Below, in pieces: positions 1,345 through 43,800 of a DNA stretch of 60,000 nucleotides. The position numbers were made by a program, and so were the translations under genes. The notes under the pieces are model-generated. The model saw nothing but the letters and a program-made list of their open reading frames with translations. It made no database searches and was not told where the DNA came from. Within the stretch, counting starts at the first letter, position 1, and every line of letters begins with the position of its first letter. This DNA comes from Amphiscolops sp. MND2022 (Eukaryota): the NCBI GenBank assembly GCA_964187785.1, contig OZ076409.1:39248001-39308000 (forward strand), read 5' to 3'.

Positions 1345-2553
1345 TGACAGAACGGGCGGACGTCTCTGGGTTAGGCACGTCACGATTGTTCTCTTCCCTA
1401 CTATTTGATAATCTGTCAGTAAGGGCTTTCACAATATTAGTAAGTTCTCCAATTTGGCGATTCATTTCCAAGAAACGTTGTTCAAATCTATGATTTTCGT
1501 GGTCCCTCTCTATCTCTCTCATGTCATTTTCGAATTCATTTCCCAAGACATTTTCACCGAAATGGTCAGCAACACTCATGTTGTCTTCGTTATCGGAATA
1601 ACTACTAGTTCCAGATTGCTCGATTCTACTTTCTCTGTTAAATCTCGATCGAGTATTTACCATGATTGAAAAGTTATATTTTTAAGCAGTTTGAATTATG
1701 AAATGTAAGTTTAAGAATCAGAACATTGTATAATGCTTGTTAAGGTAACGACTGGATTCTACCGTGGTAAAGTTCTAATTGTTGGATTTTTGAATTGTAC
1801 TAGCACCTTCAAACTCGTAATTACTCGTTAATCGCACTTGATTATTTGAGTCTCTTCTCAACTGGTCATTTGGTTAACCTGCTGTTAGCACCTCATGGTA
1901 CATTTCGTACGACTGGTCACTTCAGTCGTTGTTAATTACCACTTCGGTACTTCCACTCTATTATCACAGCAGTATGCATCATTTGCCTTGTAACTTCACA
2001 GCGCGTACTAATGATTGAAGTGCTGAATATAATTACTGCATTTGATCGTCGGTAATATTGCTCTAATTAGCACTGAATACAAATGGACGACTATTGATCG
2101 AAGTTGTTGCTGGTAATTTCGCAAAGTTTTGACTGATTGAATATTTATGAACTAAGCGATGCAAAATGACTATTGGTGAACTAAACGATGCTTTAGTAAT
2201 TGGACTATTGATGATTTACATATAAAAAACTGCATGTATGTTTAAGTAAAGGTACAACCGGATATGCCAGTCGTTTGTGTAAAGGTTTCATATATTGCAC
2301 ATAAAGTTTGTTGAATTCGACTATCTATTTTAGTCGTTATTGCTAAACAGGTGAAAGGAAAATATGTTCATGTAAAATGTGTCGAAGCACACTGGTAGTT
2401 TGTGATATTGGTGAATTGGGGTGACCACTGCATAGTACAGTCGTCCATTGTATGCATCTACATAAGCTTAAACTGTTTGTGTTTTGAATGTTTCAGTCGG
2501 TTGGTGGAGTCTTCATTCTTCAGTCGTTATACTTCATACCAACCGGTATGACA
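1345..2553 (-). repeat. 3' LTR of element 1
   Basis: Near-identical to 14830-16038 (about a dozen substitutions seen by eye); contains a copy of the gag N-terminus (ORF 1199-1663). Confidence 0.97.
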
Positions 2554-2565
2554 CTCCGCCTCTTT
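2554..2565 (-). other. Polypurine tract of element 1
   Basis: Minus strand AAAGAGGCGGAG immediately before the TGTCA start of the 3' LTR. Confidence 0.75.
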
Positions 2566-3383: not shown

Positions 3384-6300
3384 ATGTCCGATCTGGGCGG
3401 TTCCTCCTTTGATCCTGATTTGTGGTCGTTGGTATCCTTAGCCGAACGAAGCTATCAGGATATTGAAGAAATGGCTTCGAGTATCGGGTCATTGTCTGAA
3501 GAAGCGTTGGCCACAGAAGCTGCGAATTTAAATCCGCCTTGCTGTCAGTTCGCTGGGCGGGTGACTTCGTCATCCCTGGGTGGTATGAGCAAGTTGCTAG
3601 ACCTTGCTCTATCTGAAGAATTCCGTGAGTATTATTTTCTGTATCATTTTCGTCGTCATTTGTCAGTGACTACTTTCTTTTGCTCGAGTCTTTTTCTTCC
3701 ATTTTTCCCGGATTTGTGCATTGGGAGTATGGGTGCTGCATCGTAGTGGTCCAGTCATTTGTAATTCTTTTGGGCGCTAGTGTATTCTGGGGGGTATCGT
3801 GGTGAGATGGTTGTTTCATTGATTTTTTTTACTTGGGTCGTAGGCGACGTGGATGTGTCGACCTTGCTGGAGTACATCCGTGCTTTCCCGCAGAGGTGTG
3901 GTCAAACAAGTGAGGCTCCTCCAGCTGTTTTGGGCGAGCAAGTGCATCAGTTGATGGAATCTCAATTAGGTTAGTAGCACGTTCGTTCTTCTGGTTTAAC
4001 ACTCCTGTAGGTTCGCGTAACATGTACGACCTTGGTGTGTTGTGTGTCGCCGTAGAGTTAGCTTCAGTTGGTTAGGGAATTAATCAATTTGCGATAATCT
4101 AGAATGTCAGGTTGACTTTAGGTGTCGAGGACTGTGCCGTCTTGTCCTTGGACGATCTTCTGGGTCGTGTAGAGGCCCGAATGGAAAAAAGCGTTCGGGA
4201 GTTGACCAAAGCTATTCTGGAGTCTTCTTTGGGGGAACTCGGGACTGTTGGGGCTCTTCGTGTTGATGAGTTCTGGCACACTTTCAAGACTGCGCTGCAA
4301 GAGGTCATCGTGAAACAGCGTGTGGATGGGACGTCTCGTGAGTTCACTCCTTCCGTTGAGTTGTCTTCTGTGGACTTGGCCAGCCACGGTACCGTTCCTG
4401 TGCTCAGTGTCTCCGGGACCAGCTCTCACGTGCCAACTGTGTTCGGTGGGCCTGGTTCAGTCGCTGCAGTTGAGGATCCTGTTGTCGGGACGTCCGCAGC
4501 TCCAAGACCTGGTAACTATTCTCAAGATCACATGCAATGTTGTACTAATTTGGGGGTTTAAGCTTAAGTGTTAAGACTATCTAATCTTTTATCGTTTTGG
4601 AAGGTAGTGTAGGTACTAGTGTGGTTTTTCGCGTTTTTCTATGATAACAGAGGTAGTGATTGGGAGAGACAGGTCAGATATTTCTTATACGTTCTTTGGG
4701 TGTGACTTTTCGGTGTGTGTTTTTAGTGAGGAAGAAGAGGCTCAACACGTTGAAGCCATCCTATTTCGTGTCGAACGTGGTTGGGCTGTTTGTTGGCTTT
4801 CCGCGACACAAACGTGTCATTGACGGGTTTGCACGTTGTCTCATTTGCCGTGTGGACCTAAGTATCGCGGGTCGTGGCCTCCAGACTCTGTGGGGGCATT
4901 GGAAGGGTGCGGAACACACCCGTCTAGAGCAAGAGTTCCGCATCATGACGCAACGTCCGCTGTTGGACAAATCGTGTCGGCCCGTTTCCGCCGAGGAAGA
5001 CACGCGGATACGCATTGATCGAATGGTGGAGCCTCCAGTCTATTTAGAGTCGCCAATCAGTTTGTCTCTCGAGGAGCGCGTGGCTCTTGAACGTGAAGTG
5101 GAGGAGGAGGGTTCTCGTCCGGTCTTGCCCGATGGAAGTGCTGCTTATCTGTGGCTGTGTTTCTTTTTGAACTGTTTTGGGGCAGTCACTGGATTTCAGT
5201 CACTGATGCGACTCATGGATGGGTGGACTGGCAGTTTGCTGGGCGAAATGAACTTTGTAGCCCGAAGTCTTACCGTTCCGAAATGTCAGGTACTATAGTT
5301 TTTTGTGCATGTACTATATATGCTAATGTTTTTCTGGGGGGGTATTTTTCTAGTTTTACGTATTTGTTACATGTGCTAGGACTTGTATGTTACATGGTGT
5401 GATGTGTGTTTGGTTGATGGATGGTCTATGTTGTTTCGTGTTGTTTAGAGCTTGTTGTTGTACGGGGTATACCCGTACATCATGGAGAAACTGGGCAGCC
5501 TCGTGCAAGCAGGCAATCAAGTGGGGCTACGTGTTTATTTCGACGGGAATTGGGAATTTCTGGCGGGTCGACTGTCATTTTGTTGACGACGTGGACTTGC
5601 GGACGGTGATCCTTGTGACATGGCCTGTTTGCGATCGCTGGAAAGAAGATCTGATTCGGCTAACTGTGACTGTATTGTCTTGTCTGGAGCCGTTGCCTAA
5701 CATTTGTAGTGTGGTAGTGGACACCCACGTCTCTGTCGGACGGTCTTTGGCTCATTTTGGACCTACTGGCACTTCCGTTGTGATGCGATTTTACGACGTG
5801 CAGTGGTTGCAGCGCAGCATCCGGCAGCAGTTTCGGCAACGAATTGGAGGTCTCGATCCCTACAATGTTTTAGAGTTCCTAAAATATCGTCTGTCGAGCG
5901 TAGTCAATGGATCGGCCTTCGACAGAATGCCTTTGCTACGTCAGGTACTTTCTTGTGGTATAAGTGTTATAGATGTGTAATATCTAAGGTGTGTTAACTT
6001 TGTTTAGCGTGTGTATAAATTAAACCTATGATTGTAGCAGTAGGGCTAGGGTGTTCGGTCGTTTTCTGCTTTTTGTCTCATGGATCGAGGTGCAAATGTC
6101 GCTATTCTATTTGCAGTACGTGCGCAGTGACGACTTGGCTCTACCGCAATTGGCTGCTGTGTGTGGGGAACTTGTCGAACGATGGGACGATCTGGCTGTT
6201 TACTTCGGCAATGAATGCGGTGGTTCCATGGTGGAGTTGAGATCGATCCCTAGTTTGAGTGTCGTCATCTTCAATGACCGTTTGGCTCGACCGCAGATGG

Positions 6301-7189
6301 CCATGTTGAGATGGTTGCTAGATGAAGGTGAGTATAATTCAGTAGTTTGATGCTCTTTTTTTTTCTTTTTTTTTCAAACGGAAAGACTGTGAAGCAATTT
6401 GGTCCCTTCATCATCATTTTCATTTTTTTTGTGTAGGTTTTTTCGTTACGGGTGGGGGTCTATTTAGGGTGAATCCTCACTGATGTCGGTTGGGTTTGTT
6501 TGTTTTAGTAGTGGCGTCCTTCCCTCGAGGGTGTACCTATAGTCGGGACCGTGACCTGTGCTTTGAAGTAGAGTTTGTTTCTTTCTTACGACGGGGTCAC
6601 TGCTCTCTCCCAAGGACAGTTGCTGTCCAGTATGAACTTGGTGCGAAGCTGGACGAGTGCTGGGGTGATCGGCGGCGCGAGAAAATTAATGGCCGGGTTC
6701 CTACGTCACTGTGAGACAACGGACATGCAGGTTTCGCGATTGACAGACCCAGAAAGAGGGAGACCCTGGGATCAGCTGCTGAAAGTTGGAGTCGAAGACG
6801 TGTTGTCCCGGTGCTATCAGGTATTCCATGAGGGGACTGTCGAGTCAGCAGGGATCTCCGCGGACGACTACCGGTCTGCAGTGTGTGCACAGTTAAAGAG
6901 CGGTGCCGACGGTGCTAAAGTACAGATCAAAATCCGTTCCCGGAAACTTACGTCTCGTGGTTCTGTTGTTCCGTTTTCCGTCGACGATGATGAGCCGTTG
7001 AGTCGACGTGTCGTCCGGGGTAAAACTCCAAAAGCGCAAAAGGATGTCGGTTTGCCTTCTACCTCACGTGGCAGTAAAGGCAAGAAAGCAACAACGCGTG
7101 CCAAGTCTAAGTCTACCAAGGCGACTAAGAGAGTTGTAAAGCGGAACTTGTCAAGAGTCCTGATGAGTGAGTCCTCGGAGGAGTACTAG
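3384..7189 (+). pseudogene. Antisense spliced cargo gene of element 1, hAT-transposase-like, about 899 aa if repaired; predicted exons 3384-3624, 3844-3969, 4122-4511, 4727-5289, 5449-5944, 6117-6327, 6509-7189
   Basis: Phase-compatible GT..AG introns join consecutive + ORFs; zinc finger ARCLICRVDLSIAGRGLQTLWGHWKGAEH; helix ELVERWDDLAVYF; aligns with the element 2 gene; two frameshifts (7-bp duplication 5545-5558, G-run near 6594). Confidence 0.75.
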
Positions 7190-8678: not shown

Positions 8679-11600
8679 TCAGTTGGAGTGGTTGTTTTGC
8701 ACCAATTTTCGTAATACAGGTTTTGCTTGGAGTTCGTGAACGAGGAAGTCTCGATAAGTCTTCGGTGTAGGTTGCGCACGTAGGTTGTAACGGGTAGTGT
8801 TATTGCGCGACGTTACCGTTGCTTCGTCGTTGTTGTGTGGCAGCTCGTTCTGGTGGGTTGCAGTTTGATCGGGTTCGGCCCGATTTTCGTCCTCTAAGTG
8901 AGTACTGACAACAGGGTCGTCAGTCGGTGGCACAAATGTGTGAGGAGAGCTTTCAGGTATAGGTTGTGTCATTTGTCGGTCCGATGACCTTTGAGCTTGG
9001 TCGTAGTATATGATACCATGTTCAGTGTCGAGTTCTTCATGAGGCGGCAGTGCAGGCGTTCGCTCAAAATGGATCGTCTGAGGTACATGGTCGTTAAATA
9101 GATCCTGGTCGTCGAACGCTTCTGGGTCGGCATAGAAGAGATTTGGATCTTCTTCGATGTCGTGTATGGGTGCGTTCGGGATGAAAGGTCGTAAACGCAT
9201 CCTATGAACGCACTGTGTACGGGAAGTGCCGATTTTTCTCACTATGTAGTTGAAGTTAGTTAAGACTTTTACTACTTTGAAAGGGCCTTCCTATTTAAAA
9301 TGGTTGAATGCAATTTTGTCGGACTGGTCAGTGATTTTCGGGTTGAGAAGGAAAACAAAGTCATTAACCTTTAAAGGTGATGCCTGGGCTTTACGGTCGT
9401 AGTACCTTTTGTACTTGTGGTAAGCCTGGAGTATGTTGTCGTTTACTTGTTTGTACTTTTCGTTCACTTGGTCAACCAATTTCGTCAAATCAGTGTCATG
9501 TGTACGGCTTTGCAGGGGGTTGCTGAACTTAAGGTCTAAGGCGTTGAACGGGACTCTACCATGAAACACTTCGCTCGGAGTACACTTTAGTGATTGGTGG
9601 TAAGTCGTGTTATGAGCCATAACTGCCAAGTTAACGTACTTGTCCCATTGCGGAGAGTCAGCTGCAACATTGATTTTCAGTATCTGTTTTAGCTTTTGGT
9701 GGGAACGTTCAACCATTCCTATGGTCTGTGCATGTTTTACAGTTGTGTGTTCGATTTGAATTCCGGCAGTTTTCATTAGTTCGGTCATGATGCTTGATGT
9801 GAACGCCGTGCCTTTGTCAGTGATGATGGTCTTAGGCACGTAGGCGTGACGGGTAAAGATTTGCAACAGTGCATTGACTACTGATTTTGTGTCTGGTTTG
9901 CGGATCGGGATCGCGAACAGATAGCGCGAGAAGTAATCGCACGCCGTCAGGATGTGCGTATATCCATTTGAGCAGGTCAGTTCGCCTACTAGGTCGATTT
10001 CTAGTATGTCTTCAGGACCGTTGCAAGGGTCGTAGATTTTTTCAAGCGGTGGGATTAGGCGTTTTGTGTTGAAAGGTTTAGCTTTTAGACAGTCTGTGCA
10101 GTTACTAACAAATTTTGAAACGTGATCGCTAAGGTTAGGTATGTAACAACGCTTGCGGAGTTCTACCAACATTTTGGTTGCCCCAGAGTGTCCCTGCATG
10201 GGGTCGCCATGCATCGTCCTGATTATGGGCAATGTAGTTTCTGGAGGTACTACAATTTGTTTAAATAGAACTCTGCCAGTGTTATCAAAAAACTTCCTGT
10301 ACAAGACCTTGTTGACTACTTCAAGACGTTTTCTGTTTTTTACTAGTTTTTGGAAGAAGGTACTGGCAAAGTTTACGTGGTTAGGGAGGGGTTCGTCGTT
10401 AACTAAGACTCTTATCATTTTTTGAACGTCTTGGTTACTTAGTTGTGCTTGGATTATTTGTGAATCCCCTTGCGGGCATACCTGGTTTACCGTGTTGGTG
10501 TGCTGTCTTCGGGTAAACTTCGTCAGCATGATTGAGGGGGTTCCGTCTGTCAACACTGGTTCGAGGTGACGACTGATGATCTGGATCATTCTGGTACGGT
10601 CGTCGTCGGGTTGGTCCTGGGTGTTCGCGAGTGAATGCAGTAGTGATTGCATTTGGCTGAGGGCATCATGGGTGTTGGTTGTCTCAGGTCCGTCCTGCTC
10701 CGGGGTGTCAGCTGGAGTATTGTGTTGTGGTTGATCAGGGTCGTAGTCTTCTTCATCGTCGTCCTGCTTCGGGGTTTTTGCTGCTAAGTCAATCTCGATG
10801 TAATGGACGGGGATCTGGTCGTTCAGTTTCAGGTGGATCCTATCCTCAGGGTTAATGTCTAGCCTGGACAGGTAGTCAGCAGCTGGGTTTTCCACACCTG
10901 GCACGTGGGCTAGTACGAAGTCAAATTGCAGTGCTTGGTCGCAATGATTCCACAATTTCGGTGGGATTCGCTTTGATTGGAAGAAGCGGGTTAGCGCTTT
11001 ATTGTCTGTCATCACGATGGTGGGCTTCTTTACTCCCCATAAAATGTGGGCGAACTCATCGAAGGCGAAATGCATGGCTAGGAACTCCTTCGCATACATA
11101 GTCAGTGACATTTGGCCTTCCGTGAATCGTTGGGACCCGAAAGCAACAGGTGCGTACGTCTTCTTCTTGTCGTCGTTGCTTTCAGTGTAGTCCTCGATAA
11201 GCAGCACGTACCCTGCTGCATGTTCGCTGGCGTCACACATGATGACGAGTTGCTTGTCGGGTAGTGGTAGTCGAAGTGACAGTTTCGCAGCTCGTGCTAG
11301 ATTTTCGTTGATGTCGAAAATTGCGTCCTTGTGTACCTGCATCATTGCGAACTTGACATCTTTTTGTAGTAGCTTGTACAGTGGGACGAGTTTCTCGGCC
11401 AATTTCGGGATGTATTGCCTGTAGAATTGCACAAATCCAATGTAGCGCTGGAGTGATTTGACTGATGTTGGTAATTTGAAGTTTTTGAGGAAGTCGTCAA
11501 TCCGGTCTGCAAGGGGTGCGATGCCTTTGGTTGTTCTGCTTCGTCCCAAGAATTCGATTTTCGGGTGTCCAAAGGCGCACTTTGACATCGAGAGTTTCAG

Positions 11601-13622
11601 TCCTGCCTTCTGTATCTGCTGAAACACTGCTTCGATGTTGGCACCCAGTTCGTCCACGTTGTGTGCAGCGACTCCAATGTCGTCAACGTATTGTGCACAT
11701 TTGTCTGCTTTTACTAGTGCATCAAGGTACTCTCGGATTGTGCTGTTGAATGCTGACAGTGATCTGTTCAATCCTTGAGCAAGACGAAGGTATGCAAATG
11801 TCCTGCTGCCAAAATTAAATGCAAGAAGCTGGATTGACTGTTCGTCGGCCATCTGAAGACAGTGGTAAGCTTGCGAACAGTCGAGCTTACAAACGTACTT
11901 CTTGCCAGCCATGTGTTGAGCGGCGTCTGCTATCGTCGTGACCGGGTGATTGTGCTGGTTGTAGTCGTTCTTGAGGAGGTGGTTGATGCGTCTCAAGTCG
12001 ACTAGGATTCGCAATTTTCCATTGGGCTTCCGCTGGGCAAATATCGGGAACGAGTATTTGCTGTATGGAAGTGTGGTGATGATGCCGTATTCTTGCATCA
12101 GAGCCAATTCGACGAGGAGGTCGTCCTTCAGGTTAGTCGGGGTCGGTAGGCTCTGTGCGTACACCGGGTCATCATGCTTGGGTGTCAATTTGATTTTGAA
12201 ATCTGTGTTGATGCCTATGTCAAGGCGGTGACGTGCAAAAATCGTGTGGTATTTGACCAACAGTGCTTCAATCCTTTGTTGCTCTTGTTCGGTGAGGATT
12301 GAGTTGTCCCAGCTGAAATTCTTCAGGAACGCCCGTCGTTGGTCGTCGTCACGTGTGGGGTCGAGTTTCTCAGCTTCTCGGAGTTGGATGATTTCATCGT
12401 AAATTCGGCGTTCAATTTTATTCAGTTTATCAGGGTCGTCACATGTATCGGGTGTGGGGTACCATCGTTTGTCCTTGTTTGCATCTGGTTCCTGGAACAA
12501 CTGGTTGATCACGTTCTTGGCCTCATCTGGAAACTTCGAAATGAGGGTCAGTTGCTCGTTTGTCATTGGTTGGACGTTCTTCGCTTGGTTTGGGGTTAGA
12601 ATGCGGAAAACTGCGACTGTTGTGTGTTGGGGTATTGTTATTGTGTGGTCCAAGTAATTGGTGATTTGGACATGGCTCTGCTGGTCGTTTATTTCGGACA
12701 TCGATGGGGATACCAGCAGTTCCGTCTTCCGTTCGAATGCTGGGAACGCTTCCACCGTGCCTGTTACATGGCCGATGTCCTTTTCTGCTACCACTGGGAT
12801 GAAGACTTGTTGTTGCGGTGGTATGGTTGTCTTCTGTAATGCTCTGAGTTCCAACATTTGCAATTTGAACTTTCCATTTTGTGGTCTCAACTGGAGGGTG
12901 ATTTCTGGGAATTTGACAATGTTGTTTGCGAGGTCTAGTGTTACTGAATATTTTTTGAAAAATGACATTCCGATCAAAATGTTTCCCATTGTCGGCAAAA
13001 TCATAAATGTTTCCTCGAACACTTTTCCTCCGATAAAGAATCGAAGGAGGACTTGTTTCCGGACTGGGACTATGCTTCCATTGGCAATTTGGACTTTGAA
13101 GTCCGGGGCTGGGTATTCTTCAAGTTGAGCTGCTGGGTGGGCTTGCAATATCCGGCGTAGTTCATTTTCCGACATTGCACTTTGGATAGCACCTGTGTCC
13201 AGTAGCCCTTGGTTTTCGTATGCTCTGAATTGGAGAGGGACGTAGAGCATTTTGTTTCTCTTGTCTAGTTGTAATGTTGCACTGAGGGGTTTGATAGCCA
13301 TTGTTTTAGTGTTATTTGACGACTTCGTTTGTGATGGGTTGTTTTTGTCCCTTGTTTCCGTCTGAGTAGTCCGTGTAATGGGTGGTGAGTCCTTTGCAGT
13401 ACAGTCCTTTGTTGTACACGTGGGGTCATCTCCAACTAGTGTGAGTATGTGGTAGTTGTTGGGTGATACCTTGTGTACGTAGTATTTTTTGGAGTGTTTA
13501 GACCGATTGCCAGAATGCTGCCGACATTCCGACGTCTGAGACTTCGAGTCATAGTAGTGTTTAGTTTGTGGTCGTTTGCGCGCACTGGTAGTCTGGTTGT
13601 GTTGAGGATGACGTGGCTTTAC
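8679..13622 (-). CDS. pol: Pol polyprotein of element 1 (protease, RT, RNase H, integrase); one in-frame TAG at 9291-9293
   Basis: LLDTGA protease; YVDD RT; CDAS...KEFLA...TDN...ADYLSR RNase H; H-H-C-C zinc finger and DDE integrase; NHFK*EGPF continues in frame into ORF 8679-9242; frame open back to the gag end. Confidence 0.95.
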
Positions 13623-15148
13623 AAGTTTTTTGAATTCTGGTTGAATTCTTCGTTGTAATCCTCGTCGTAACAGTCATTATGTACTTCGGTTTGGTTGGTC
13701 TCACTTGTTGCTTGTGATACCTGGTATTGTGGTTGTTGTCGTGAGTTTTGGGATTGTCGGAAATCTCGTCGGAACTCACGATTCTCCGTTGTGGACTGTT
13801 TTTGATAAGGTACATTCTGGTATGCTGATGCACCTGGGACTCGGTTTCTGCAGTCTCGTGCAGAGTGTCCAACTTTGCCACAGATTTGGCACACTAGCTT
13901 CGAGTTGTATCGGGGTTTGTCAGTCTGAGGCTGCTGGTTGTTATTGTCCTGTTGGGTGCGTTGGTAAGTTTTTGTGTGGATTCCGTTTGCTTCGTCCCGG
14001 AGGCGTTTTCGGCAGTCAATCCACTTATGTCCAACAATGTTGCAGTATCTGCAGTTGCCTTCAAATTTTCGTTTGACCTCTTTGTTGGTGGCAGTTGTTT
14101 GTTGGTTGGTTGGCTGCTTCGCGGGGTAATTCTGGATGTTGTTCAGAGGTTGCATCCCTGCAGGGGTGGGTAGCAGTTGTGCATATTGGCAACGTCTTTG
14201 CACGAAAGTCTTAATTTCCTCGCTGGTCGCATCGTGCTTTCCTGCCATTGCCAGCTCATTCTGGATTTGTATGGGTAATTTGGCAAACAGGAATGTTTCA
14301 GCTATGTCATTGGCTTTGTCACCATACGCCTGTTTTGCTAATTTTTTGAATTTTGTTAGAAAATCGGCAAATGACTCCGTTGTTGGGTCGTACCTCATTT
14401 GATCGAATTTGTACTTCGATACTTCTTTGAGGTCTTCTTTGGCGTATTCCTTGCTGAATGCCTGGAGGATTTCGGTGAGTGTTGTTTCGGTCGTTATCTT
14501 CAGAGTTTGCCAGAAATCGATGGCGTCATCTCTGAGGAGGCTTTGGAAATAATTCAATTTCTGCTCTTCCGTCAGTTTGTGCATATGTGGCCGGAGATGG
14601 TTTTTGAGCAAGTGTTCGAACTCATTGTACTTTTCTCGGTTGCCACGGAATAGAGGGACTTGTGTTTGGAGTATTTTGGGCTGGATCACTCCATCGGTCA
14701 TTGTTGTTCTGAGGTGCTGTATTTCGGTCATGACTTCTCCCATTTGTGGATCAAGTAATGAATGTGGAGTCCTTCTTGGTGGTTGCGTGTTGGGTGTAGG
14801 TGGTGGGTTCGCCAGGACTCCTGTCACCATGTCAGAACGGGCGGACGTCTCTGGGTTAGGCACGTCACGATTGTTCCCTTCCCTACTATTTGATAATCTG
14901 TCAGTAAGGGCTTTCACAATACTAATAAGTTCTCCAATTTGGCGATTCATTTCCAAGAAACGTTGTTCAAATCTATGATTTTCGTGGTCCCTCTCTATCT
15001 CTCTCATGTCATTTTCGAACTCATTTCCCAAGACATTTTCACCGAAATGGTCAGCAACACTCATGTTGTCTTCGTTATAGGAATAACTACTAGTTCCAGA
15101 TTGCTCGATTCTACTTTCTCTGTTAAATCTCGATCGAGTATTTACCAT
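13619..15148 (-). CDS. gag: Gag of element 1 (509 aa), starting inside the 5' LTR
   Basis: Capsid-like region followed by two CCHC knuckles, CRYCNIVGHKWIDC and CQICGKVGHSARDC. Confidence 0.93.
   Translation of the reverse strand: MVNTRSRFNRESRIEQSGTSSYSYNEDNMSVADHFGENVLGNEFENDMREIERDHENHRFEQRFLEMNRQIGELISIVKALTDRLSNSREGNNRDVPNPETSARSDMVTGVLANPPPTPNTQPPRRTPHSLLDPQMGEVMTEIQHLRTTMTDGVIQPKILQTQVPLFRGNREKYNEFEHLLKNHLRPHMHKLTEEQKLNYFQSLLRDDAIDFWQTLKITTETTLTEILQAFSKEYAKEDLKEVSKYKFDQMRYDPTTESFADFLTKFKKLAKQAYGDKANDIAETFLFAKLPIQIQNELAMAGKHDATSEEIKTFVQRRCQYAQLLPTPAGMQPLNNIQNYPAKQPTNQQTTATNKEVKRKFEGNCRYCNIVGHKWIDCRKRLRDEANGIHTKTYQRTQQDNNNQQPQTDKPRYNSKLVCQICGKVGHSARDCRNRVPGASAYQNVPYQKQSTTENREFRRDFRQSQNSRQQPQYQVSQATSETNQTEVHNDCYDEDYNEEFNQNSKNL
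13625..13631 (-). other. Putative -1 ribosomal frameshift heptamer A AAA AAC
   Basis: Lies two codons before the gag stop; the -1 frame is open through to the pol ATG at 13301. Confidence 0.7.
14818..14829 (-). other. Primer-binding site of element 1 (TGGTGACAGGAG)
   Basis: Directly after the 5' LTR, begins TGG (complement of tRNA CCA); identical 12-mer in element 2. Confidence 0.85.
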
Positions 15149-16038
15149 GATTGAAAAGTTATATTTTTAAGCAGTTTGAATTATGAAATGTAAGTTTAAG
15201 AATCAGAATATTGTATAATGCTTGTTAAGGTAACGACTGGATTCTACCGTGGTAAAGTTCTAATTGTTGGATTTTTGAATTGTACTAGCACCTTCAAACT
15301 CGTAATTACTCGTTAATCGCACTTGATTATTTGAGTCTCTTCTCAACTGGTCATTTGGTTAACCTGCTGTTAGCACCTCATGGTACATTTCGTACGACTG
15401 GTCACTTCAGTCGTTGTTAATTACCACTTCGGTACTTCCACTCTATTATCACAGCAGTATGCATCATTTGCCTTGTAACTTCACAGCGCGTACTAATGAT
15501 TGAAGTGCTGAATATAATTACTGCATTTGATCGTCGGTAATATTGCTCTAATTAGCACTGAATACAAATGGACGACTATTGATCGAAGTCGTTGCTGGTA
15601 ATTTCGCAAAGTTTTGGCTGATTGAATATTTATGAACTAAGCGATGCAAAATGACTATTGGTGAACTAAACGATGCTTTAGTAATTGGACTTTTGATGAT
15701 TTAAATATAAAAAACTGCATGTATGTTTAAGTAAAGGTACAACCGGATATGCCAGTCGTTTGTGTAAAGGTTTCATATATTGCACATAAAGTTTGTTGAA
15801 TTCGACTATCTATTTTAGTCGTTATTGCTAAACAGGTGAAAGGAAAATATGTTCATGTAAAATGTGTCGAAGCACACTGGTAGTTTGTGATATTGGTGAA
15901 TTGGGGTGACGACTGCATAGTACAGTCGTCCATTGTATGCATCTACATAAGCTTAAACTGTTTGTGTTTTGAATGTTTCAGTCGGTTGGTGGAGTCTTCA
16001 TTCTTCAGTCGTTATACTTCATACCAACCGGTATGACA
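14830..16038 (-). repeat. 5' LTR of element 1
   Basis: Direct repeat of 1345-2553, TGTCA...TGACA termini. Confidence 0.97.
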
Positions 16039-32951: not shown

Positions 32952-34656
32952 TGTCGTGAGCATTGCGAAATGCGTGGTCACATTGCTCATTAATCAAAGT
33001 CGTTCTAGTCCTTGTATTTTGCTGAACTTCGGAATGATTTTCCGGTCTCTCAACTGGGACCTCCCATCCCCTTCTAGTCTCACGGCCCGATCCGGCCATT
33101 AAGGCGTTTTGAATCTGAGGCAATACTTGACTATTTATAGCTTCATTAATGGCCCTTTGGATCTGTGAGCTAACATTATTGAACATGTCATCCATCTCTC
33201 TTGAGATCCTAGAGTTTAGTTCACTTGACAACCTGTTTATCTCAGCTTGAGAATCTAGGCTTGCTGAGTTATGGCCATAACCGGCACTTGTCCCAATTCC
33301 AAGATTTTCATTTTCTGAATGAAGATTTGTTTCCTCATCTTCCAAATTATTACTTACAATACTATTTTGTCTTCTAATGGAGGTCCCGTTAAGGCTGTTA
33401 TCCCTCCCTGATCCGTTGAAATGATTCTCGCCTAGCATAATATCTAGATTTTCAATGTCTGAGAGAATTTCTAATCCTCTAGATCTTCTTGCCTTCTTTT
33501 GTTTTCTAGTGGTAGGCATCAAGATCGAACCGAGTTGAAATATTGAATTCGTAAACTCAGAAAATTAACAGTGTAACCGTTTTGATGTTTACTAACATGA
33601 ATCAAAATGAAATTGTGTCTTCCCCAAGCGGGGTAATAGTATATATACCGCACGGGGAATGACAAGCACATTCTTTACATGATTAGCAAATCACTTGATT
33701 CCATACCTCACAGGGAAATCCCCGACTAATACATTTTTTAGGGGACAACTTAGGAACGGAATTTACAGACCGTTTATCTAAATACCAACATCAAACAACA
33801 TGTCGGCTAGCATCGTGACAATTATGGTGTAAACAAACTTCACTGCTTACATATTTTACAACTATGCAAGGTGCAGGCACGTGCCGACACACGTTCATTT
33901 CATAGCATCTTCATAAATGGAATGCATTACGGAATTCTAATAATGCAGCTGTATTCTCAAAGCGCTATTTTCAATGTACGCCCGAACAGGGACTAAGTCC
34001 ATAACATGTACAGCACGAATAAGGGGGCATGGAAAAGAGGTTAAATTATCCCCTTTTGTTAGGCAAGCAACAAGATTATTTAAACTACAAATGCGTATTA
34101 AATAGCTCCGGATAAATATTGGCTCATTTAAACAACAAAGGAAATATTATATCAGAATAGGCCGAAACCGGCCACTTGACTAAAGGGCCATTATTAGAAT
34201 AGTACCGTTCAGGCAATAGGCCTTATCCAGCCATTATAAACAAAGCATTTATAATTAGCAACAGGGGAGTGCTGTGATTGGTCAGCGGCCGTACCGAAAG
34301 TCACATCGCCGAGAAGGGACGTTTTCTCACTTGAACACGTTTCCTTCTCGCGATTAACTTGCTTTTGCACTTTACCGCTTTTCACTACAAATTAACACAT
34401 CGTTATACTGCACAGTATCTACATTCTAGTACAACATCCCAATTTGGATTTTCCAAATTGTAATTTAACAGACTAATATAATGCACCAATATATAAAATA
34501 CATCCGATTAACTAGAAAGTTGACAAAAATAATGATCCAATAACTATAAGTTTTAGTCAAAAGAGTTTTAAAATGTTGGAAGTGTACCTGGAGCGATATC
34601 TTGGCCCACTGCTGTAGTCGTTATAGGAGTTCCGTCACAGGCGGCAGCCTGCGACA
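32952..34656 (-). repeat. 3' LTR of element 2
   Basis: Direct repeat of 47202-48906; only two differences noticed. Confidence 0.97.
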
Positions 34657-35347
34657 CTGCGGGTGTTATAAATAAAAAGGCCCCAGCATTCAAACCGTTC
34701 ATATAGGCGTCTCTCCTAATCTGTGTTATGTACTCTGGTTCATCCCGTGATTTGGTCCTTGACACGTACCAGTCGACTTTCTCTCTTTTGATGGCATCTG
34801 CTGAACGTCCGCACACCATGCAGCCCGTGTATAAGCTTTCGCTGACATTTTCGTACGGCAACGTGTTTTGCACGTGATATGACGCGTGAAATCCACCCAT
34901 AGCATACGGCACAATAGGAGTATCTAGGCTCGGTCCCCTCTCGTGAGGTGGGGGAGACATGGGAGATTCTGCCACTGGTATGATGGTATTGCAGATTTCA
35001 ATTCTTGATTTGGTAGACCTTTTCGGCGGGGCATAACACATTTCATGGTCGAAATACTTCGGGCCCAATTTCGGGGTTACATTTGCTTTGGAGCAACTTG
35101 GACCGTCTTCTTCATTGTCGTCTTCGGGCTCTTCTACAGTCATAATTCTTCCCCCAATAAGCATCGGGCTGGCAGTCACCTCTTTCTCAATTCTGGAAAT
35201 CAGCTTTTCAGTATCGGTAGAACAATCGGTCTCCCATTCTGAAGCTTCGCTTTCGTCGCTAGATAGGTAGATCACTGATTCTCCAGACACGTCCGAGTCT
35301 GATTCTTCCAAGTCGAAGAGTCTCTTAGCCAGATTGAATTTATTCAT
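34568..35347 (-). CDS. Extra sense-strand ORF of element 2 (259 aa, unknown function) ending inside the 3' LTR
   Basis: Intact ATG-TAA ORF; acidic N-terminus, CMVC motif; last 89 nt are LTR sequence. Confidence 0.7.
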   Translation of the reverse strand: MNKFNLAKRLFDLEESDSDVSGESVIYLSSDESEASEWETDCSTDTEKLISRIEKEVTASPMLIGGRIMTVEEPEDDNEEDGPSCSKANVTPKLGPKYFDHEMCYAPPKRSTKSRIEICNTIIPVAESPMSPPPHERGPSLDTPIVPYAMGGFHASYHVQNTLPYENVSESLYTGCMVCGRSADAIKREKVDWYVSRTKSRDEPEYITQIRRDAYMNGLNAGAFLFITPAVSQAAACDGTPITTTAVGQDIAPGTLPTF

Positions 35348-35698
35348 TATGAATTTTTTAGCTATTTTGATGAGGATTGAGGCAACTGGTTAGAAGTAAG
35401 ATTCTGAGCTGAATGAATTTATCAGTCTCGGGGTTTTAGCCGAGACGGGCCTTTTCCGAAGTTTCCAATTCGGCGGGAGAAACTTAGGTTGATCATCTCG
35501 ATTCGATGTAAACTTTTATGAATGGAATTCTCAAATGAGCTTACGGCCTTTATTAATTGGTGTTTTACCCCTCATCTCAACAAGCATCAAAGGGGGTGTG
35601 AATAACTCTCAAGTTGTTGACATCAAATATTTCTCTTTCGAGTGGGTAATTAACAACCTGCCTTACAGCAATTAGCGGCGCACGACAAGAAAACTTCC

Positions 35699-36360: not shown

Positions 36361-36376
36361 TTTCTAATGCGGCGTA

Positions 36377-39300
36377 ATGGATTTCTTTCAAGGAAGCTTA
36401 CCGCCAAATTTCATCCCTTTCTGTTTAGATAACCAGAATCTTGATGAACAACAAGTTCAAACCAGCAACGCAACTGACAATTCTGCTGGGGCTTTTCAAC
36501 GCCCAGTCCCCATTTCCATGTCCGGATATGTTCCTGGGATCAATCCTTCACCGCCTCCTTTTCCTCCGATAAGGACGTTCCTCTCTCAAATGCAACAGTT
36601 GGCCGCTGATTCCCTTTTTAGCAATGAAAGTAACGTTGACGTCACAGCGTATGCAGATGAGATGGTACAACGGATGGAGACTTCGCAGGGGTTAATTGGT
36701 ACAGAACCTGCCAATCTTGAAGAAGAAGAGCCGTCTCTGGCACAAAGCCCAGTTGTCCAAGACGTGGGTCGCGAACCCGTTCAAGTGAGGGCCAGTACTC
36801 CTACCCCACTCGAACAGTCAGGAACAGAAGTCGTTAGCACTTCACAACTTGTGTCTTCGCTGTCAATCGTGCCACAATCACAGTCTGGCTTCCCTGAGCT
36901 GCGCGTTCTTCAGGACCAGACACAAGAGATGTCTGAGGCTTCCTTTTTGCAGTCTGAGGGGAATGTCTCTTCTTCAGTCGCAGAACCTCCTCCACTTCCT
37001 GGGGGAAGAGACCAAACCGAGGACATTGGCGAGTCTAGTGATGTCAATCCAGCTTCAGAAAACGCCAGTCAAGTAGAATATCCCGCACTATACGTCGTTA
37101 ACCCATTCGACTTGGCACAGCAATCAGAGACTGGAGGGGAATCGAGCTCGGAAACTCACGATCCAGGCCAACCGAGCACGTCCAGGGCTGGCCAACCAGG
37201 TCAAAGTGATGTTTTGCGAGATTTGTCAGGGCGAAGTCGAGCCACCTTGAAACAGTACTTTGAGACTGAGGACCCTTACACCTTCCCGGTCGGACAAAGA
37301 GTGGTTGCGTTCACTGAGCCACAAGTTTACCACCTGCTCCGAGTTTTAACTGATGAGGCCATTAGCATGACCTGCTCAACTATGGAGAGGATGGTGATTG
37401 GAGCTGTCAAAGGTACGCCCGCAACTACTCCTTCAAGGACAGACAAATTCCGGACCCGGGCCCGCTCATTCACACCTGACCCCAATACATCTGTCATATC
37501 TGATTCTGAAGGGACTTCGGCCGAATATGGACTAGGATCTGAGTCACGAGCTGACACGAGTCTGTCCCAAGACGTCAGCGGTTTCCTTGATCCCAATGAG
37601 AGCGACAGTGCTACCGAAATGGCTCTCATCAATCAGGCTCTCGGAATTGCAGATTCCAGGGGATCTCCACAAACTCCTCAGCCAACACAGCCGCAAGATT
37701 CTTCTGAGGAGGGAACTGGGACAGGGGAAAAAGATAGCCTCGATATTGCCCTCTCTGAAATCCGGAATGGGACATCCACCCAAAGGTCCCGGAAAGGCAC
37801 CGCAGCTGCTAAATCAGCTAAAGCGAAAAAGACTTCTCGGCGAGGTGTGCCCATGAGAGAAGAGTTCCTCTCTAAAATCAAGTGGACGAGATCTTTCATC
37901 TCTGGACCTTCTGATCCCTTGCACAATCCATATATGGTATGGTGCCATATGTGTAAGAAGAACTTCAGTGTGAAAACAAAAGGCGCCGTTGAGATCCTAC
38001 GCCATCACAGGACTGAAAAACATCTACGTCGGGACCAGAGATGGAGGTACGAGCACCTCAAAACAGTAGATCACGTATCTGGAAAAGTACAACATCGTGT
38101 CAGGGGGAGGAATGGCAAGATCCTCAGCAAGAAAGAACTCGCTGATGAGTTGCCCAAATTTATACACACAGAGCTCGTCGACGCTGGGGAAAGAAATCCG
38201 TTTTATGAGGATTACCTTCAAGGCCACACTACTGCTCCCATCTCTCCACAGTCTCGATTGCGCACGCAGATATGTCTCTTGGGCGACTTTGTTCAGAGTT
38301 CAGGAGATCTGGGACTGCTTCGAAAATTGTGGGCAAGAGTTGGAAGTTATACTGAGTTTCGAACAGCCTTCCAGGACTTCAATTGGAATGAAGACCACAT
38401 CATGGTAAGATTTCTCAGATGTTTTCCAAAAGGTTGAGCTAGGGGGTAGAGAAGGACCGGGAAAGTGACGACATGTTGTCCATCTAATTTTGTTCCGTTT
38501 CAGGCCATCTTCCAACACGTCTTCAACTGTCTAATGGGGGACATAGCTGACCAGGTCTCCGCCTCCCAGCATTTCGGCGTTGAATTTGAGAAGAGAGGGG
38601 CCAACCGCCACATGTCTCTGCGATTCTGGAAAGGGACGAAACTCTGCCGGGTGTTCATCTGCAGAAGTAGTCTTGCTGGCGCTGGACTGACCGAGGAACT
38701 GGGCTCCCTAGCACGGCTGCTGTCCGTTGTGTCGACTGCTCCTGACGTAGTTGCCATCTCAGGTTGCGCTGTGGACCTGATCAGGACTGTGGACCAACAC
38801 CCATCTTACCCGCGAGGAGTGCAGAGCTGCTTTCGCTTTGAGTTGCTTGATCTGCGCACACTGATGCATAAGAAGAGTTACAGTGTGTTTGGCAACATCG
38901 ACATGTTTTCAGTCCTCCAAAGCCTCTTAGTCTCACTTGGAGGAAGTTTGTCTGAAGACTGGGTCACAGAGTCCCCTGATCTTGTCCGGGTGAGTCTAGT
39001 TTGTATATTTGATTTACATTACACTGGTGGGGAGGTGGTAAGCAGTCTCAGTTGAGATTTCAACCCTGAGGATTACTTTGTTTAGGCAATCACCACCTGC
39101 AAATTGGAAGTAGAGAAGATTCCTGAGCTTTGCCGGATTTTGTCAAAGAAGTGGAAAACAATCCTCCGCTACCTCACAATCCACTCACCACGTCAAGAGA
39201 ACCAGGGCGTGCACAACAAGGTTATGGACTTCAAATGGCATTTCCTTTACATAAAGAAAATGTTGTAGTTGCTCATCTTGCATTGTCGTTGGTGGGTAAG

Positions 39301-40649
39301 TCCAAAGGTGTTCACTCTGCTTCTTTCCTAGGTCCAGAGCTTCGAATGGTCCCTCATTGTGGACGACTTCTTTGCAGTCAAATTGGAGTTTTTCCAACGA
39401 TTGGTCAACGATTGTGAGTATTCTTAATCCACCAAGGTCCCTTTGGTCCGTTGTCCTTATAAGGATCGTTGATTTGTGAATTTCAGATGTCATCAGCTTC
39501 GCCACCCATTTGAGTCAGAGACGTGATGCCTCCTTCTTCCTTTGCGGCGAGGTCTGCAAATACATCAACCGCCTCTGCTCTCGTATCTTTCAGCCTGATA
39601 CCGTGCCACTGGAGAATGCCTGGTTCTTATTGATGGATTTCCAGATGAACCAGGGCAAGTTCATGGAAGACGAGGACTTTCTGGTGCGTCTCAAGATCTC
39701 TGGCAAAGTCACTTCGGCGAGTAACCTGAAAGCAGCTGGCCTCCACTTTAACAAGAAGTCGAGTAAGGCAGCCATCAGTAAGACCGCTGATCAGGCCAAG
39801 TCAGATTTTGTGGCGAGCGCCAGAAGTTACGTCAAGTTCCTGTTGTCACAAGTCCTCCAGCATACCGAACTCAGTTCTGATCTCATCAAAGGGTTGGCAG
39901 CGTTCGACCCATACATCCTCTTCAAAAGACCAGTGGAAGTTGCCCTACGACATTTTGATTGCTTGTACTCCACGTTCCAGTTGCGTTTCTGGGTCTCCGA
40001 GTTCAATGAGTCAGCCTGCCGAGACGAGTACGTAGCCCTATTGGACTACCTCAGGAACAACCATTCCGCTGAATTTAGTGCTGCCAATGATTCCCCTGAT
40101 CTCATTGATTTCTTCATGAGTTTGGAATTCCTTCAGTCTCGAGATCATCTTTGTTATTTGTTCAAGCTAAGCTGCCTTTGTATAACAACTGTCAGTCCTG
40201 AGTATCCTCCCGTTTCCTTTGGAAGAATCAATGCAGCCATGCTTCAGTCTCGTTTGGTAGACGTGATTTTACCCTGCCAGAGTTATTTATCTTCTGATCC
40301 TGATTCCTTGTTGGCCTGCTGCACTGAATCCCAGCTTGAGAGGTTCCAGCAGTTGTCTTCTACTTTCGGGCAATCCGCTTTCGCTGCCGATTATGACCCT
40401 TGGCCTTTTGTAGACGGTTTTGGTCGAACTGCTATCTACAAGTCCCTTGTCGCTTCCCACCGTTCTGTGCTCTCTGGGTCAGAATTCCAGTTCCGTAGTC
40501 CCACTCTTGCTGATACTTCTTCCGTCAAAGATGCTCCTGCCTACAGACTGCCTAGTGACAGTAAGAGAAGACGAATGGAGAGGGCCGTTTCTCGTTCTAC
40601 GGCTTCATCTGTTGGCGACGAATCCTCAGCTAGTAGCCCTAAAGACTAA
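36377..40649 (+). CDS. Antisense spliced cargo gene of element 2, hAT-transposase-like, about 1297 aa; predicted exons 36377-38404, 38504-38989, 39086-39220, 39332-39413, 39487-40649
   Basis: Four 73-111-bp GT-AG introns give one uninterrupted 3894-nt ORF; zinc finger VWCHMCKKNFSVKTKGAVEILRHHRTEKH; RNase-H-like strands; RILSKKWKTILRYL helix; C-terminal HLCYLFKLSCLC helix. Confidence 0.82.
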
Positions 40650-40880: not shown

Positions 40881-43800
40881 CTAGTATCTATAGTCTTCTG
40901 AGTAGTTCGGGTTGGGGTTAGGCCTGAGGTTATATTTTCCTCCTCTAGGGCTCAGGCTTTCATTTCTAGTATCGTTTTCAGATATTTCGGGCACGATAAT
41001 ATCATCCCCCCTGCTAGGAGAATTTTGTAGGTCAGTATCATTTGTTGAATTGTTCTCTGAAATGATCTTGTCTTTTTTGAGGTCATTTCCTGTATTCGGC
41101 GAATGTGTTTCGTTAGCGTTCGGTATTCCGGCCTCGTTCGGCCAATCAGATTCCTCATTCGATGCTTCTTCGGTGACGTCATTACTTGTCGTTACGTCGT
41201 GACGTAAGCGGCCATTCTGGCTGTGCACCGCGTTGTCATTATTCGTTGCTTCTCGCGTGATTATATAATCCGCGTTATTGTCGTTTGCGTCATTGTTAAT
41301 TTCTGCCGTACTCGGCTGTTCGCCATTCGGGAAATTAGTCGGAATAGGCTCGTTGCCTCGCGTAACCAGCTGCTCACCAAAGTCGGTTTCCCACGTTATG
41401 ACGTATAAGTCATCTTGTGGAATGACAATTTCTTCGTCTGGCTGTAGCCGTTGTTCTCGGAAATTGTCCTCAAGCGGTTGATTGGGAACAAACTTTTTCA
41501 GGCGAATTCGATGCAAAATCTGAGTTTTATTTGTATTAATCCGTCGTACGATGTAATTTTCATTTGGTAAGACTTTCTGGACTACAAATGGTCCAACCCA
41601 ACGATAATCGCGGAATGGGATTTTCGATCCTTGATGATCCGCTTTCGGCTGTAAGACAAAACAGAATTCATTCTCCTTCAATGGAGCAGCTTTTGCTTTG
41701 CGGTCATAATATTCCTTGTCTTTGATATATGACTGCATAATATTTTGCTTCGTTTTGTCTATTAGGGTTTTCGTCCTGTTCTGGATTTCTTCAGCAAATT
41801 CGGTTGTAGGGCTGATCTTTTCGTTTGGATTATTTCCAAGCTTGTGATCTAGAATATTGTAGGGAATTCGGCCATGGAATACCCTCGTTGGTTCACAACC
41901 GATGCTGGCATGGTAACTGGTATTATGATTAAGCACTGCTAATGGCAAATATTTGTGCCATTGTCGGCGGTATTCTCCACATGCCATTTTGAGATTTGTC
42001 TTTAAGGAGGCATGGGTCCGCTCCAATTTCCCAATTGTTTGCGGGTGTTTCGTTGTCGCACATTTGAGTGTAATTCCCAAAACTTGCGTGACTTCCGTAA
42101 TAATTGTAGAAGTAAATGCAGTACCTTTATCAGTGATAAGCGTTGTTGGTAAGTACGCATGTTTTGTCATGATATCAATGAGCGCTTTTGCTACATTGAT
42201 CGCTGATGCATCCGTAAGTGGATAGGCAAACAAATATCTAGAAAATACATCAATTGCCGTTAGGACGTTTTCATATCCTCCACTTGGGGGAAGATTCGGC
42301 AATAGGTCAATTTGCATGGCGTCTTCAGGTCCAAGGTCCCATTCGGGCAAATTTAGTAGTTCAGGCGTGATCGTTGCATTAGGGACTCTTTTGTCTCTGG
42401 CGCATTGTTCACACCCTTCTACCCATTTTTTGACGTGTTTAGCCATGTTAGGGTAGTAATACCGTTGTCTAATGTCCTGCAACATTTTTGAAATCCCGGG
42501 ATGTTTATGCGCTGTCCCGTGAAGGGATTGAAGCAATTCCCGGAGTAAGTGTTGCGGGAGTAAAATTTGATGGTATTTCACATTCCCTGTTTCGTCAAAA
42601 TATTGCCTCGTCAGGATTTCGTCCTTGAGTACAATTCGTTCCAGATTGTTTGCGTAGTGTCTATATCGGGCATCCTGTTGCAGTATGTTTTCCGAATAGT
42701 CTTCATGAAGGAGTTTCGCCCTCAATTGTTGTAATACTGCGTCCTTGGACTGTTCAATAATAATTTGGTTAGTTTTCTTCAGTCGGACTTGTATGTCTAG
42801 TTGTTGTTTCACTAGGTTCGTTGACAGAGTTTCTATTGTAATAGTGGGCTCATCAGTCATTGGGTTTTTCCTGATTGCTTCTTTTCTTGCCCAATAATGT
42901 TCCTCTGTCTCGTCGTCATCATTCGTATAGAATATCTGCTCTTCCTGTGATACCCCCGCAGATTGGACATTTATCTCAATGGGTAATGTTTGCACATCTT
43001 CCCGGATTTTCATGACCAATTTGTCCTTCGGGTCTGCCTCCAATCGGGACAGATAATCTGCGGCTGTATTTTGTGCCCCCGGAATATGCGCTATGACGAA
43101 ATTAAACTGAATCACATAATCACACGCATTCCAGAGTGCTGGGGGTATAATTTTCGTCTGGAAAAATCTTGTTACAGCCTTATTGTCAGTAAGGATTATG
43201 ACCGGTTTGGGCGTACCCCAAAATATATGCCCAAATTCTTTGAATGCAAAGTAAATTGCTAGGAACTCCTTGGCGTATATTGACATCTTGATTTGAGCTG
43301 GGGTGAAGGTTTTTGAGCCATATGCCACCGGTGCATAGGATTTTCGAAGAGAAGTAAATTTCTGGTTTGGGTCATCTTCTATGAGTACTGCATACCCAGC
43401 TGCACCAAAACTTGCATCAGTCATTAGTGCAATCTGCTTGTTTGGAATGGGTTGTTGTAAGGCCAAGTCGCAGCATTTGTCGAGTGCTTTATTGATTTCT
43501 TCAAATTGTTGGACTAATTCTTTCGATACTAGGATCTTTTCGTCACTTTTCAGCATCTTGTAGAATGGGGCAAGGCGTTCTGAGAGTCTTGGGACATAGT
43601 TTCTATAGTAATTCAAGAATCCCAAATAACGTTGTAAAGCCTTTTTCGACTTCGGGAATTTGGTCTTTTCCAGAAAGTTTTGAACGTTTTGCTTTTGGGG
43701 TTTAACGCCTTGTGGAGTAATTGTTCGTCCAAGAAAATCAATTTCTTTGGCACCAAAATGACATTTGTGCATGGTTAACTTAAGGCCTGCTTCCTGTATG

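What the first reader, a model, noticed from the sequence alone, without database searches (positions are those of the whole stretch)
5289..6600. Intron positions and phases conserved between the cargo genes of two diverged elements
Three introns fall at equivalent aligned sites: VPKCQ|SLLLYGV vs EDHIM|AIFQHV (phase 0); MPLLRQ|YVRSDDLALPQL vs SPDLVR|AITTCKLEVEKI (phase 0); and LLDE|VVASF...RD...E vs LVND|YVISF...RD...E (phase 1, both with GTGAGT donors). The proteins are much more diverged than the two Pols and the LTRs show no similarity I can see. This implies one ancient capture, vertical inheritance within the retrotransposon lineage, selection on splicing, and rapid protein evolution. Element 2 has one intron not in element 1; element 1 has three extra 5' introns, suggesting intron gain or loss inside a retroelement.
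Basis: partly seen in the sequence, partly recalled or inferred. Interest (0 to 1): 0.85.

Follow-up and report, generated by a model that had tools for sequence, protein, structure and literature searches.

The report
Retrotransposons carry dead DNA-transposase gene backwards
A large family of retrotransposons carries, on the opposite strand, a conserved gene whose predicted intron positions are shared even between barely similar members, and whose product is likely a disabled DNA-transposon (hAT) enzyme that would serve as a DNA-binding regulator of the element.

Summary
Observation confirmed. Two Ty3/gypsy-type elements carry a multi-exon gene between pol and the 3' LTR, antisense to gag-pol. 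The genes are homologous (18% identity, E 5e-7). Two predicted introns align exactly and one within a codon, all in the same phase. GT/AG sites are kept across families down to about 33% identity, and two lineages lack single introns precisely. The window's element-1 copy is itself broken (frameshift, ~575-bp deletion). New here: the product has an invariant BED-like zinc finger, and two separately folded exons each rank Hermes (hAT) transposase first of 48,161 chains (Z 5.3, 5.8; weak singly). No DDE triad survives. 'Rapid protein evolution' is mostly wrong: dN/dS is about 0.07, and old cargo alleles are exchanged onto near-identical pols. Introns likely persist because they lie antisense to the packaged RNA. 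Best reading: a captured, catalytically dead hAT-type transposase acting as a DNA-binding accessory protein (function untested; no RNA data). Antisense extra ORFs are known in plants; I found no report of a spliced, hAT-derived one.

The parts
1345..2553 (-). Element 1 3' LTR (1209 bp; holds the first ~110 gag codons)
   Evidence: 12 mismatches to the 5' LTR; 5-bp target duplication at 1340-1344 and 16039-16043
3384..3624 (+). Element 1 cargo exon 1 (predicted), phase-1 GTGAGT donor
   Evidence: homologous frame and donor in sister families
3844..3969 (+). Element 1 cargo exon 2 (predicted)
   Evidence: AG/GT kept in most sister families examined
4122..4511 (+). Element 1 cargo exon 3 (predicted)
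4727..5289 (+). Element 1 cargo exon 4, with C-x2-C-x16-H-x5-H finger at 4837-4917
5290..5448 (+). Shared intron 1, phase 0 (one codon off its element-2 partner)
5449..5944 (+). Element 1 cargo exon 5 (RNase H-like core by homology); frameshifted in this copy
5945..6116 (+). Shared intron 2, phase 0, exact register
6117..6327 (+). Element 1 cargo exon 6 (equals element-2 exons 3+4)
6328..6508 (+). Shared intron 3, phase 1, exact register
6509..7189 (+). Element 1 last exon; about 575 bp missing relative to sisters
8679..13673 (-). Element 1 pol (PR-RT-RH-IN), in-frame stop at 9291
13619..15166 (-). Element 1 gag, starting inside the 5' LTR
14830..16038 (-). Element 1 5' LTR
32952..34656 (-). 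Element 2 3' LTR (1705 bp)
   Evidence: 2 mismatches; 5-bp target duplication at 32947-32951 and 48907-48911
34568..35389 (-). Element 2 extra sense-strand ORF (orfX), divergent from the cargo and running into the LTR
   Evidence: 28-73% identical homologues in sister families; no Pfam hit
36377..38404 (+). Element 2 cargo exon 1: long low-complexity N-terminus, then the zinc finger at 37943-38023
38405..38503 (+). Shared intron 1, phase 0
38504..38989 (+). Element 2 exon 2: predicted helix, three strands, helix; aligns to Hermes 153-246
38990..39085 (+). Shared intron 2, phase 0
39086..39220 (+). Element 2 exon 3
39221..39331 (+). Element-2-clade intron, phase 0; precisely absent in L142 and in the element-1 clade
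39332..39413 (+). Element 2 exon 4
39414..39486 (+). Shared intron 3, phase 1; precisely absent in L129-L132 and L144
39487..40649 (+). Element 2 last exon: predicted helical; residues 130-237 align to Hermes 426-567
40881..46334 (-). Element 2 pol (PR-RT-RH-IN)
46078..47412 (-). Element 2 gag frame, continuing from inside the 5' LTR
47202..48906 (-). Element 2 5' LTR

Best explanation
These Ty3/gypsy-type retrotransposons carry an antisense, predicted multi-intron gene under purifying selection that is likely a catalytically dead hAT-type transposase, likely captured once by an ancestor, and that would act as a sequence-specific DNA-binding accessory protein on the element's own LTR region. 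SHOWN: position, orientation, homology, shared junctions, selection, zinc finger, module exchange. INFERRED: (1) a hAT transposon or hAT-derived host gene landed between pol and the 3' LTR on the opposite strand; (2) its introns read backwards in the packaged genomic RNA, so they are never spliced out in replication, while the gene's own transcript from the promoter next to the 3' LTR needs them spliced; (3) rare recombination with the reverse-transcribed spliced message gave the precise intron absences; (4) template switching moves U3-promoter-cargo blocks between gag-pol backbones, so the cargo looks fast though it is mainly older; (5) the protein keeps DNA binding and oligomer parts, has lost cutting, and boosts or shields element expression. 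Odds: hAT origin about 0.75; dead enzyme if so about 0.9; LTR-directed regulator about 0.45.
For: Antisense pol downstream in 55 of 63 ten-kb loci, same-strand pol in 0. C-x2-C-x16-H-x5-H invariant in 25 of 25 rows from both clades; weak zf-BED hits in 6 of 25. Two models from separate exons each rank Hermes 8edg_A first of 48,161 chains, in gene order: Z 5.8, rmsd 3.1, 85 aligned and Z 5.3, rmsd 3.7, 86 aligned; six Hermes entries top the second look, range 153-246. Atlas leads: hAT dimer domain, FAM200/GTF2IRD2, DUF4371, ZBED5, KIAA0543. No acidic column shared by both clades at the three catalytic positions. dN/dS 0.049-0.149. L135 vs L168: LTR middle, orfX and cargo 40-72% DNA identity, gag head 84-91%, pol mostly 95-98%. 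Sense-oriented introns are lost in retrotransposition (PMC2923131 passages).
Against: Both Z-scores are under 8 and tied within 1 with unrelated folds (glucokinase 5.4, MarR 5.0); models are low confidence (pLDDT 58, 52). Foldseek gave nothing at E<=0.001. No Pfam hAT family hit any exon or any of 48 relatives. Profiles did not match the genome's own Ac-like hAT frames beyond one finger hit. Atlas recognition scores were below its threshold. Cargo and LTR are not always linked: L084 vs L138 share orfX at 88-94% with cargo near 55%. Expression and binding are untested. Mosaic copies could partly be mis-assembled repeats.
Confidence: 0.5

Rival explanations
1. Same hAT-derived dead protein, but it works at integration: it tethers or targets the integration complex, or imports it into the nucleus.
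For: Zinc finger and basic C-terminal tails; nuclear-import and integration roles are proposed for plant antisense ORFs (PMC7264820).
Against: Cargo alleles about 63% identical sit on 98% identical integrases, and 74% identical ones on identical integrases, so no tight co-evolution with integrase.
Confidence: 0.2
2. It is a counter-defence or exclusion protein kept diverse by balancing selection: it neutralises a host silencing factor or blocks competing elements.
For: Deeply diverged, selected alleles persist and swap onto one pol pool; pol-less copies keep the gene open; anti-silencing use of captured domains is speculated for MULE elements (PMC5418596 passage).
Against: No pair with dN/dS near or above 1 among 17 usable pairs; site-wise selection was not tested; no host partner known.
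Confidence: 0.15
3. The gene is not of hAT origin: it is an unrelated zinc-finger gene, and the Hermes matches are common folds.
For: Low Z-scores and no significant sequence-level match.
Against: The same target ranks first for two independent models in collinear ranges, and the Atlas gives the same clan from two different exons.
Confidence: 0.1
4. Two related hAT genes with the same ancestral introns were captured independently by the element-1 and element-2 clades.
For: N-terminal regions, 5' introns, LTRs and orfX differ wholly between clades; no intermediate family was sampled.
Against: Same site, same orientation, same loss of catalytic residues; no free hAT of this type was found in the genome (incomplete tests).
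Confidence: 0.12

Closest known systems
Antisense additional ORFs between pol and 3' LTR (aORF-3R): maize Grande gene23, rice RIRE2, Silene Retand, bean PvRetro13, Botrytis Boty (PMC7264820, parts 1-2 of 3 read; PMC11963269 passages)
   Same: Ty3/gypsy host, same position and orientation, present in most copies, conserved, predicted nuclear DNA-binding role; Retand ORFs carry a domain named Transposase_28.
   Different: No TRP28, PMD or SMC hit here. Those papers say the origin is unknown and TE similarity is lacking, and call for a look at spliced antisense transcripts; the word intron does not occur in PMC11963269. Here there are 4-6 predicted introns, a near full-length hAT-like layout and allele swapping.
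hAT transposases (Hermes; ZBED5/FAM200/ZNF862-type leads)
   Same: Order of parts: finger, RNase H-like strands, helical insertion, C-terminal helices.
   Different: D180/D248/E572 and R318-W319 (numbers from PMC6027215 passage) not jointly kept; no terminal inverted repeats seen; moves inside an LTR element.
Plant mobile domain shared by Gypsy elements and MULE transposases (PMC5418596 passages)
   Same: A domain shared between a DNA transposon superfamily and gypsy extra ORFs, linked to silencing.
   Different: There the authors infer capture by MULEs from host genes, and the domain is not the transposase; here the transposase body itself appears to be the cargo.
Extra ORFs of animal LTR elements: bdelloid ORF3 (PMC5408684 passages), planarian Burro (PMC6431247 passages)
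   Same: Non-env accessory genes in gypsy-like elements.
   Different: Those encode esterase, exonuclease, env-like or apoptosis domains; the passages seen mention no antisense intron-bearing transposase derivative.

Membership tests
Ty3/gypsy LTR retrotransposon | gag then PR-RT-RH-IN order | tested here: met
   both elements
Ty3/gypsy LTR retrotransposon | TG...CA LTRs with short target duplication | tested here: met
   5-bp duplications; one LTR end of element 1 carries a substitution
Ty3/gypsy LTR retrotransposon | placement in a named clade by RT tree | not tested
   no reference RT set held
antisense aORF-3R class | ORF between pol and 3' LTR, antisense, in most copies | tested here: met
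   55 of 63 loci antisense, 0 same-strand; loci were chosen by cargo, so cargo-less copies were not counted
antisense aORF-3R class | conserved under selection | tested here: met
   dN/dS median 0.072, 17 pairs
antisense aORF-3R class | own antisense transcript | not testable with these tools
   no RNA holder listed
Retand TRP28 / PMD aORFs | PF04195 or plant mobile domain | tested here: not met
   no such Pfam hit
hAT transposase | N-terminal BED-type finger | tested here: met
   invariant C2H2 spacing in 25 of 25; zf-BED only weak, best E 0.026
hAT transposase | RNase H-like fold split by a helical insertion | tested here: inconclusive
   Hermes first twice but Z 5.3 and 5.8, tied with other folds
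hAT transposase | DDE triad | tested here: not met
   strand-1 Glu only in the element-2 clade (17 of 31 rows), Asp after strand 4 only in some element-1 rows, third position mostly non-acidic; position mapping inferred from structural ranges
hAT transposase | RW motif | tested here: inconclusive
   Trp153 in 17 of 17 element-2-clade rows, not preceded by Arg, absent in 14 element-1 rows; equivalence inferred
hAT transposase | C-terminal dimer domain PF05699 | tested here: inconclusive
   no hmmscan hit; Atlas lead 0.93 on a cluster with 60% PF05699
hAT transposon | terminal inverted repeats and 8-bp duplication around the gene | tested here: not met
   only short imperfect pairs among the 25 longest shown of 35 and 54
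env-like ORF3 | same sense as gag-pol | tested here: not met

The most novel reading that the evidence does not exclude
An LTR retrotransposon lineage domesticated a whole DNA-transposon gene, introns included, as its own sequence-specific regulator. The dead transposase and its U3 binding region form a swappable specificity cassette, kept as many old alleles that circulate over a shared gag-pol pool, in the way envelope genes circulate among retroviruses.
Probability: 0.3. Interest if true: 0.88.

Novelty: new variant of a known kind. Interest (0 to 1): 0.72.

Why it matters
The origin and role of antisense extra ORFs in LTR retrotransposons is an open question (PMC7264820). This family gives a traceable origin (class II enzyme inside a class I element), a clear reason introns survive reverse transcription, natural precise intron losses, and many alleles on near-identical pols that make specificity testable. 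The family is large: first-look candidates were 5535 and 721 (not copy numbers), and 398 representative proteins at the 50% level include relatives with no close match in this genome.

Tried and rejected
Longer spliced relatives: none; one search returned 202 proteins, the 120 listed being single-exon frames without names. Pfam on exons and relatives: no hAT family. PDB by sequence: polyubiquitin hits rejected as summed repeats (nearly all with 0 passing stretches); nothing useful. Foldseek: nothing at E<=0.001. DUF4371 in the genome: 0 matches, controls silent too. Cargo profiles against 464 frames from 30 hAT loci plus the window's hAT: only a finger hit, E 1.2e-4. Metagenome scan: none; viral scan: one weak locus L194, not examined. 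No tRNA gene in the window. A candidate exon 4011-4070 was dropped because 3969/4122 join in phase without it. My first reading of a frameshift in exon 4727-5289 was wrong; it is open in phase 1. Earlier scan notes: none. The host group was not established by any search. Supplements were not read; bioRxiv supplements are closed and element lists there could bear on novelty.

Full report
ANATOMY. The window (G000:C1:39248001-39308000; 1.07-Gb assembly) holds two LTR elements on the minus strand. Element 1 spans 1345-16038 (LTRs 1209 bp, 12 mismatches) and element 2 spans 32952-48906 (LTRs 1705 bp, 2 mismatches); each has a 5-bp target duplication. Both have gag and PR-RT-RH-IN. Between pol and the 3' LTR each has a gene on the plus strand, antisense to gag-pol: seven predicted exons in element 1, five in element 2.

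OBSERVATION. The quoted junctions and phases are real. The window's element-1 copy is broken: a 496-nt exon against 489 in sisters, about 575 bp missing from the last exon, a stop in pol. I therefore used sister copies. L061 against window element 2 gives blastp E 5.3e-7 at 18% identity; 10 of 10 pairs exceed all 200 shuffles; family profiles give probability 94%. To avoid circularity I compared exon sets without joining them: the four positional pairs score E 6.5e-6 to 2.6e-4 or better, the other 16 pairs E>=0.02. Introns 2 and 3 are in exact register; intron 1 is one codon off. Random placement would give this about 7e-8 of the time.

ARE THE INTRONS REAL? No RNA run was listed, so evidence is comparative. 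With decayed copies included the element-1 figures fall to 33 of 46, 39 of 42, 31 of 40. Exon lengths are fixed while introns run 64-491 nt. Five loci (L129-L132, L144) lack shared intron 3 precisely, and L142 lacks the element-2 intron precisely; these natural joins match the predicted junctions to the base. Database proteins P0030, P0090, P0149 also run through intron 3 and P0071 through the element-2 intron; P0030 and P0149 have no close match in G000, and whether they come from DNA or RNA is unknown.

WHY INTRONS SURVIVE. An antisense pol lies downstream in 55 of 63 ten-kb loci, a same-strand pol in none; 8 lack pol within the stretch. Introns in the sense of the element transcript are lost on retrotransposition (PMC2923131, passages); antisense ones would not be seen by the spliceosome in the packaged RNA (inference). 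So retention needs no special device; conservation of the sites shows the gene's own transcript matters.

WHAT THE PROTEIN IS. A C-x2-C-x16-H-x5-H finger is invariant in 25 of 25 rows. The next exon folds (pLDDT 58) as helix, three strands, helix and ranks Hermes transposase first of 48,161 chains, Z 5.8, rmsd 3.1, 85 aligned, Hermes 153-246. The last exon (pLDDT 52) also ranks Hermes first, Z 5.3, rmsd 3.7, 86 aligned, Hermes 426-567. Each score alone is weak and tied with unrelated folds; the weight comes from the same target twice, in gene order. I had guessed hAT from recalled motifs before these searches. Atlas features point to the same clan from two exons, below its recognition threshold. 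Against: Pfam, Foldseek, PDB sequence search and the genome's Ac-like hAT frames give no significant match. Active hAT enzymes need D180, D248, R318, W319, E572 (PMC6027215, passage). The element-2 clade keeps a Glu in strand 1 and a Trp; some element-1 rows keep an Asp after strand 4; the serine-Glu-Arg-Phe motif seen in the genome's hAT frames is matched by Pro-rich, mostly non-acidic columns. No clade has the triad, so the enzyme is likely dead. No terminal inverted repeats flank the gene.

EVOLUTION. Element 1 against 2: RT 69%, RNase H 53%, integrase 43%, protease 32%, gag 28%, cargo 18%. Of 64 loci, 29 had open integrase core and cargo exons, giving 208 pairs. In pairs with usable dS the cargo dN/dS is 0.072 (17 pairs) and integrase 0.037 (94 pairs): about twofold relaxed, still strongly purifying. 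Five pairs have integrase pS under 0.10 with cargo pS over 0.60, for example L075/L160 (integrase identical, cargo 74%); three pairs show the reverse. Trees agree on major clades and conflict within them (AU p 1e-7, 6e-4). Sliding identity places switches at the pol 3' end and in the LTR near the gag head (L135/L168, L133/L170), though L084/L138 switch between orfX and cargo. So the cargo is mainly older than the pols it rides on; exchange by template switching is the likely cause (inference); mis-assembly is not excluded, though two patterns recur on separate contigs (L168 and L169; L075 and L076).

MECHANISM. Most likely a nuclear DNA-binding accessory protein acting on the element's LTR region (about 0.45), then an integration aid (0.2) or counter-defence (0.15). 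None is tested.

KNOWN WORK. Antisense ORFs at this position are described for plant and fungal gypsy elements, with origin unknown (PMC7264820, parts 1-2 of 3 read; PMC11963269 passages). PMD links Gypsy and MULE (PMC5418596 passages). Animal extra ORFs: PMC5408684, PMC6431247, PMC8220671, and orchid AlkB PMC9289625 (passages). Eight topic searches (listings only, beyond the papers named) showed no spliced hAT-derived gene inside an LTR element; the library lacks most subscription papers and Repbase, so this is limited.

VERDICT. Observation confirmed, interpretation partly revised, and the cargo given a likely identity. New variant of a known kind; interest 0.72.

Noticed in passing
L158, L159, L195-L197 (G000:C2:77.96 Mb, C12:55.26 Mb, C4:23.34 Mb, C7:43.37 Mb, C6:6.23 Mb): A pol-less family keeps an open cargo gene with all junctions; four of five copies also hold a second, convergent cargo gene of another family (internally deleted in three). 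Three copies are 98% identical over about 9 kb. How it spreads is unexplained.
   Followed up: partly
window 14830-15166 and 47202-47412: In both elements gag begins inside the LTR, and the TGG primer-site-like sequence right after the LTR lies within the gag frame, the same 10 bases in both.
   Followed up: no
window 34568-35389: orfX, a sense-strand ORF with a CxxC motif, divergent from the cargo and overlapping the LTR start; homologues 28-73% identical across the element-2 clade, none seen in the element-1 clade.
   Followed up: partly
window 34657-34690: No purine-rich tract precedes the element-2 3' LTR, whereas element 1 has one at 2554-2565.
   Followed up: no
window 36209-36376: A short ATG frame with a GT donor-like site and several short motifs upstream of the element-2 cargo start are kept across diverged families; possibly a 5' untranslated intron or upstream ORF.
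   Followed up: partly
window 6509-6512: Tandem AG acceptors at the last exon in the element-1 subfamily; distant families match the first.
   Followed up: yes
G000:C6:4698289-4704098 (L058): Three matches to the element-1 core exon spaced 2737 bp apart, a tandem amplification of part of the cargo.
   Followed up: no
window 21619-23793: Broken Ac-like hAT transposase frames between the two elements; not a close relative of the cargo.
   Followed up: partly
window 25832-30936: LINE-like element: PHD and zinc-knuckle ORF, endonuclease and RT in shifted frames, preceded by a 219-aa frame with no family hit.
   Followed up: no
window 16233-16386 and 31543-31742: A 67-bp inverted repeat, and a 200-base N gap inside a gag-head-like frame.
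   Followed up: no
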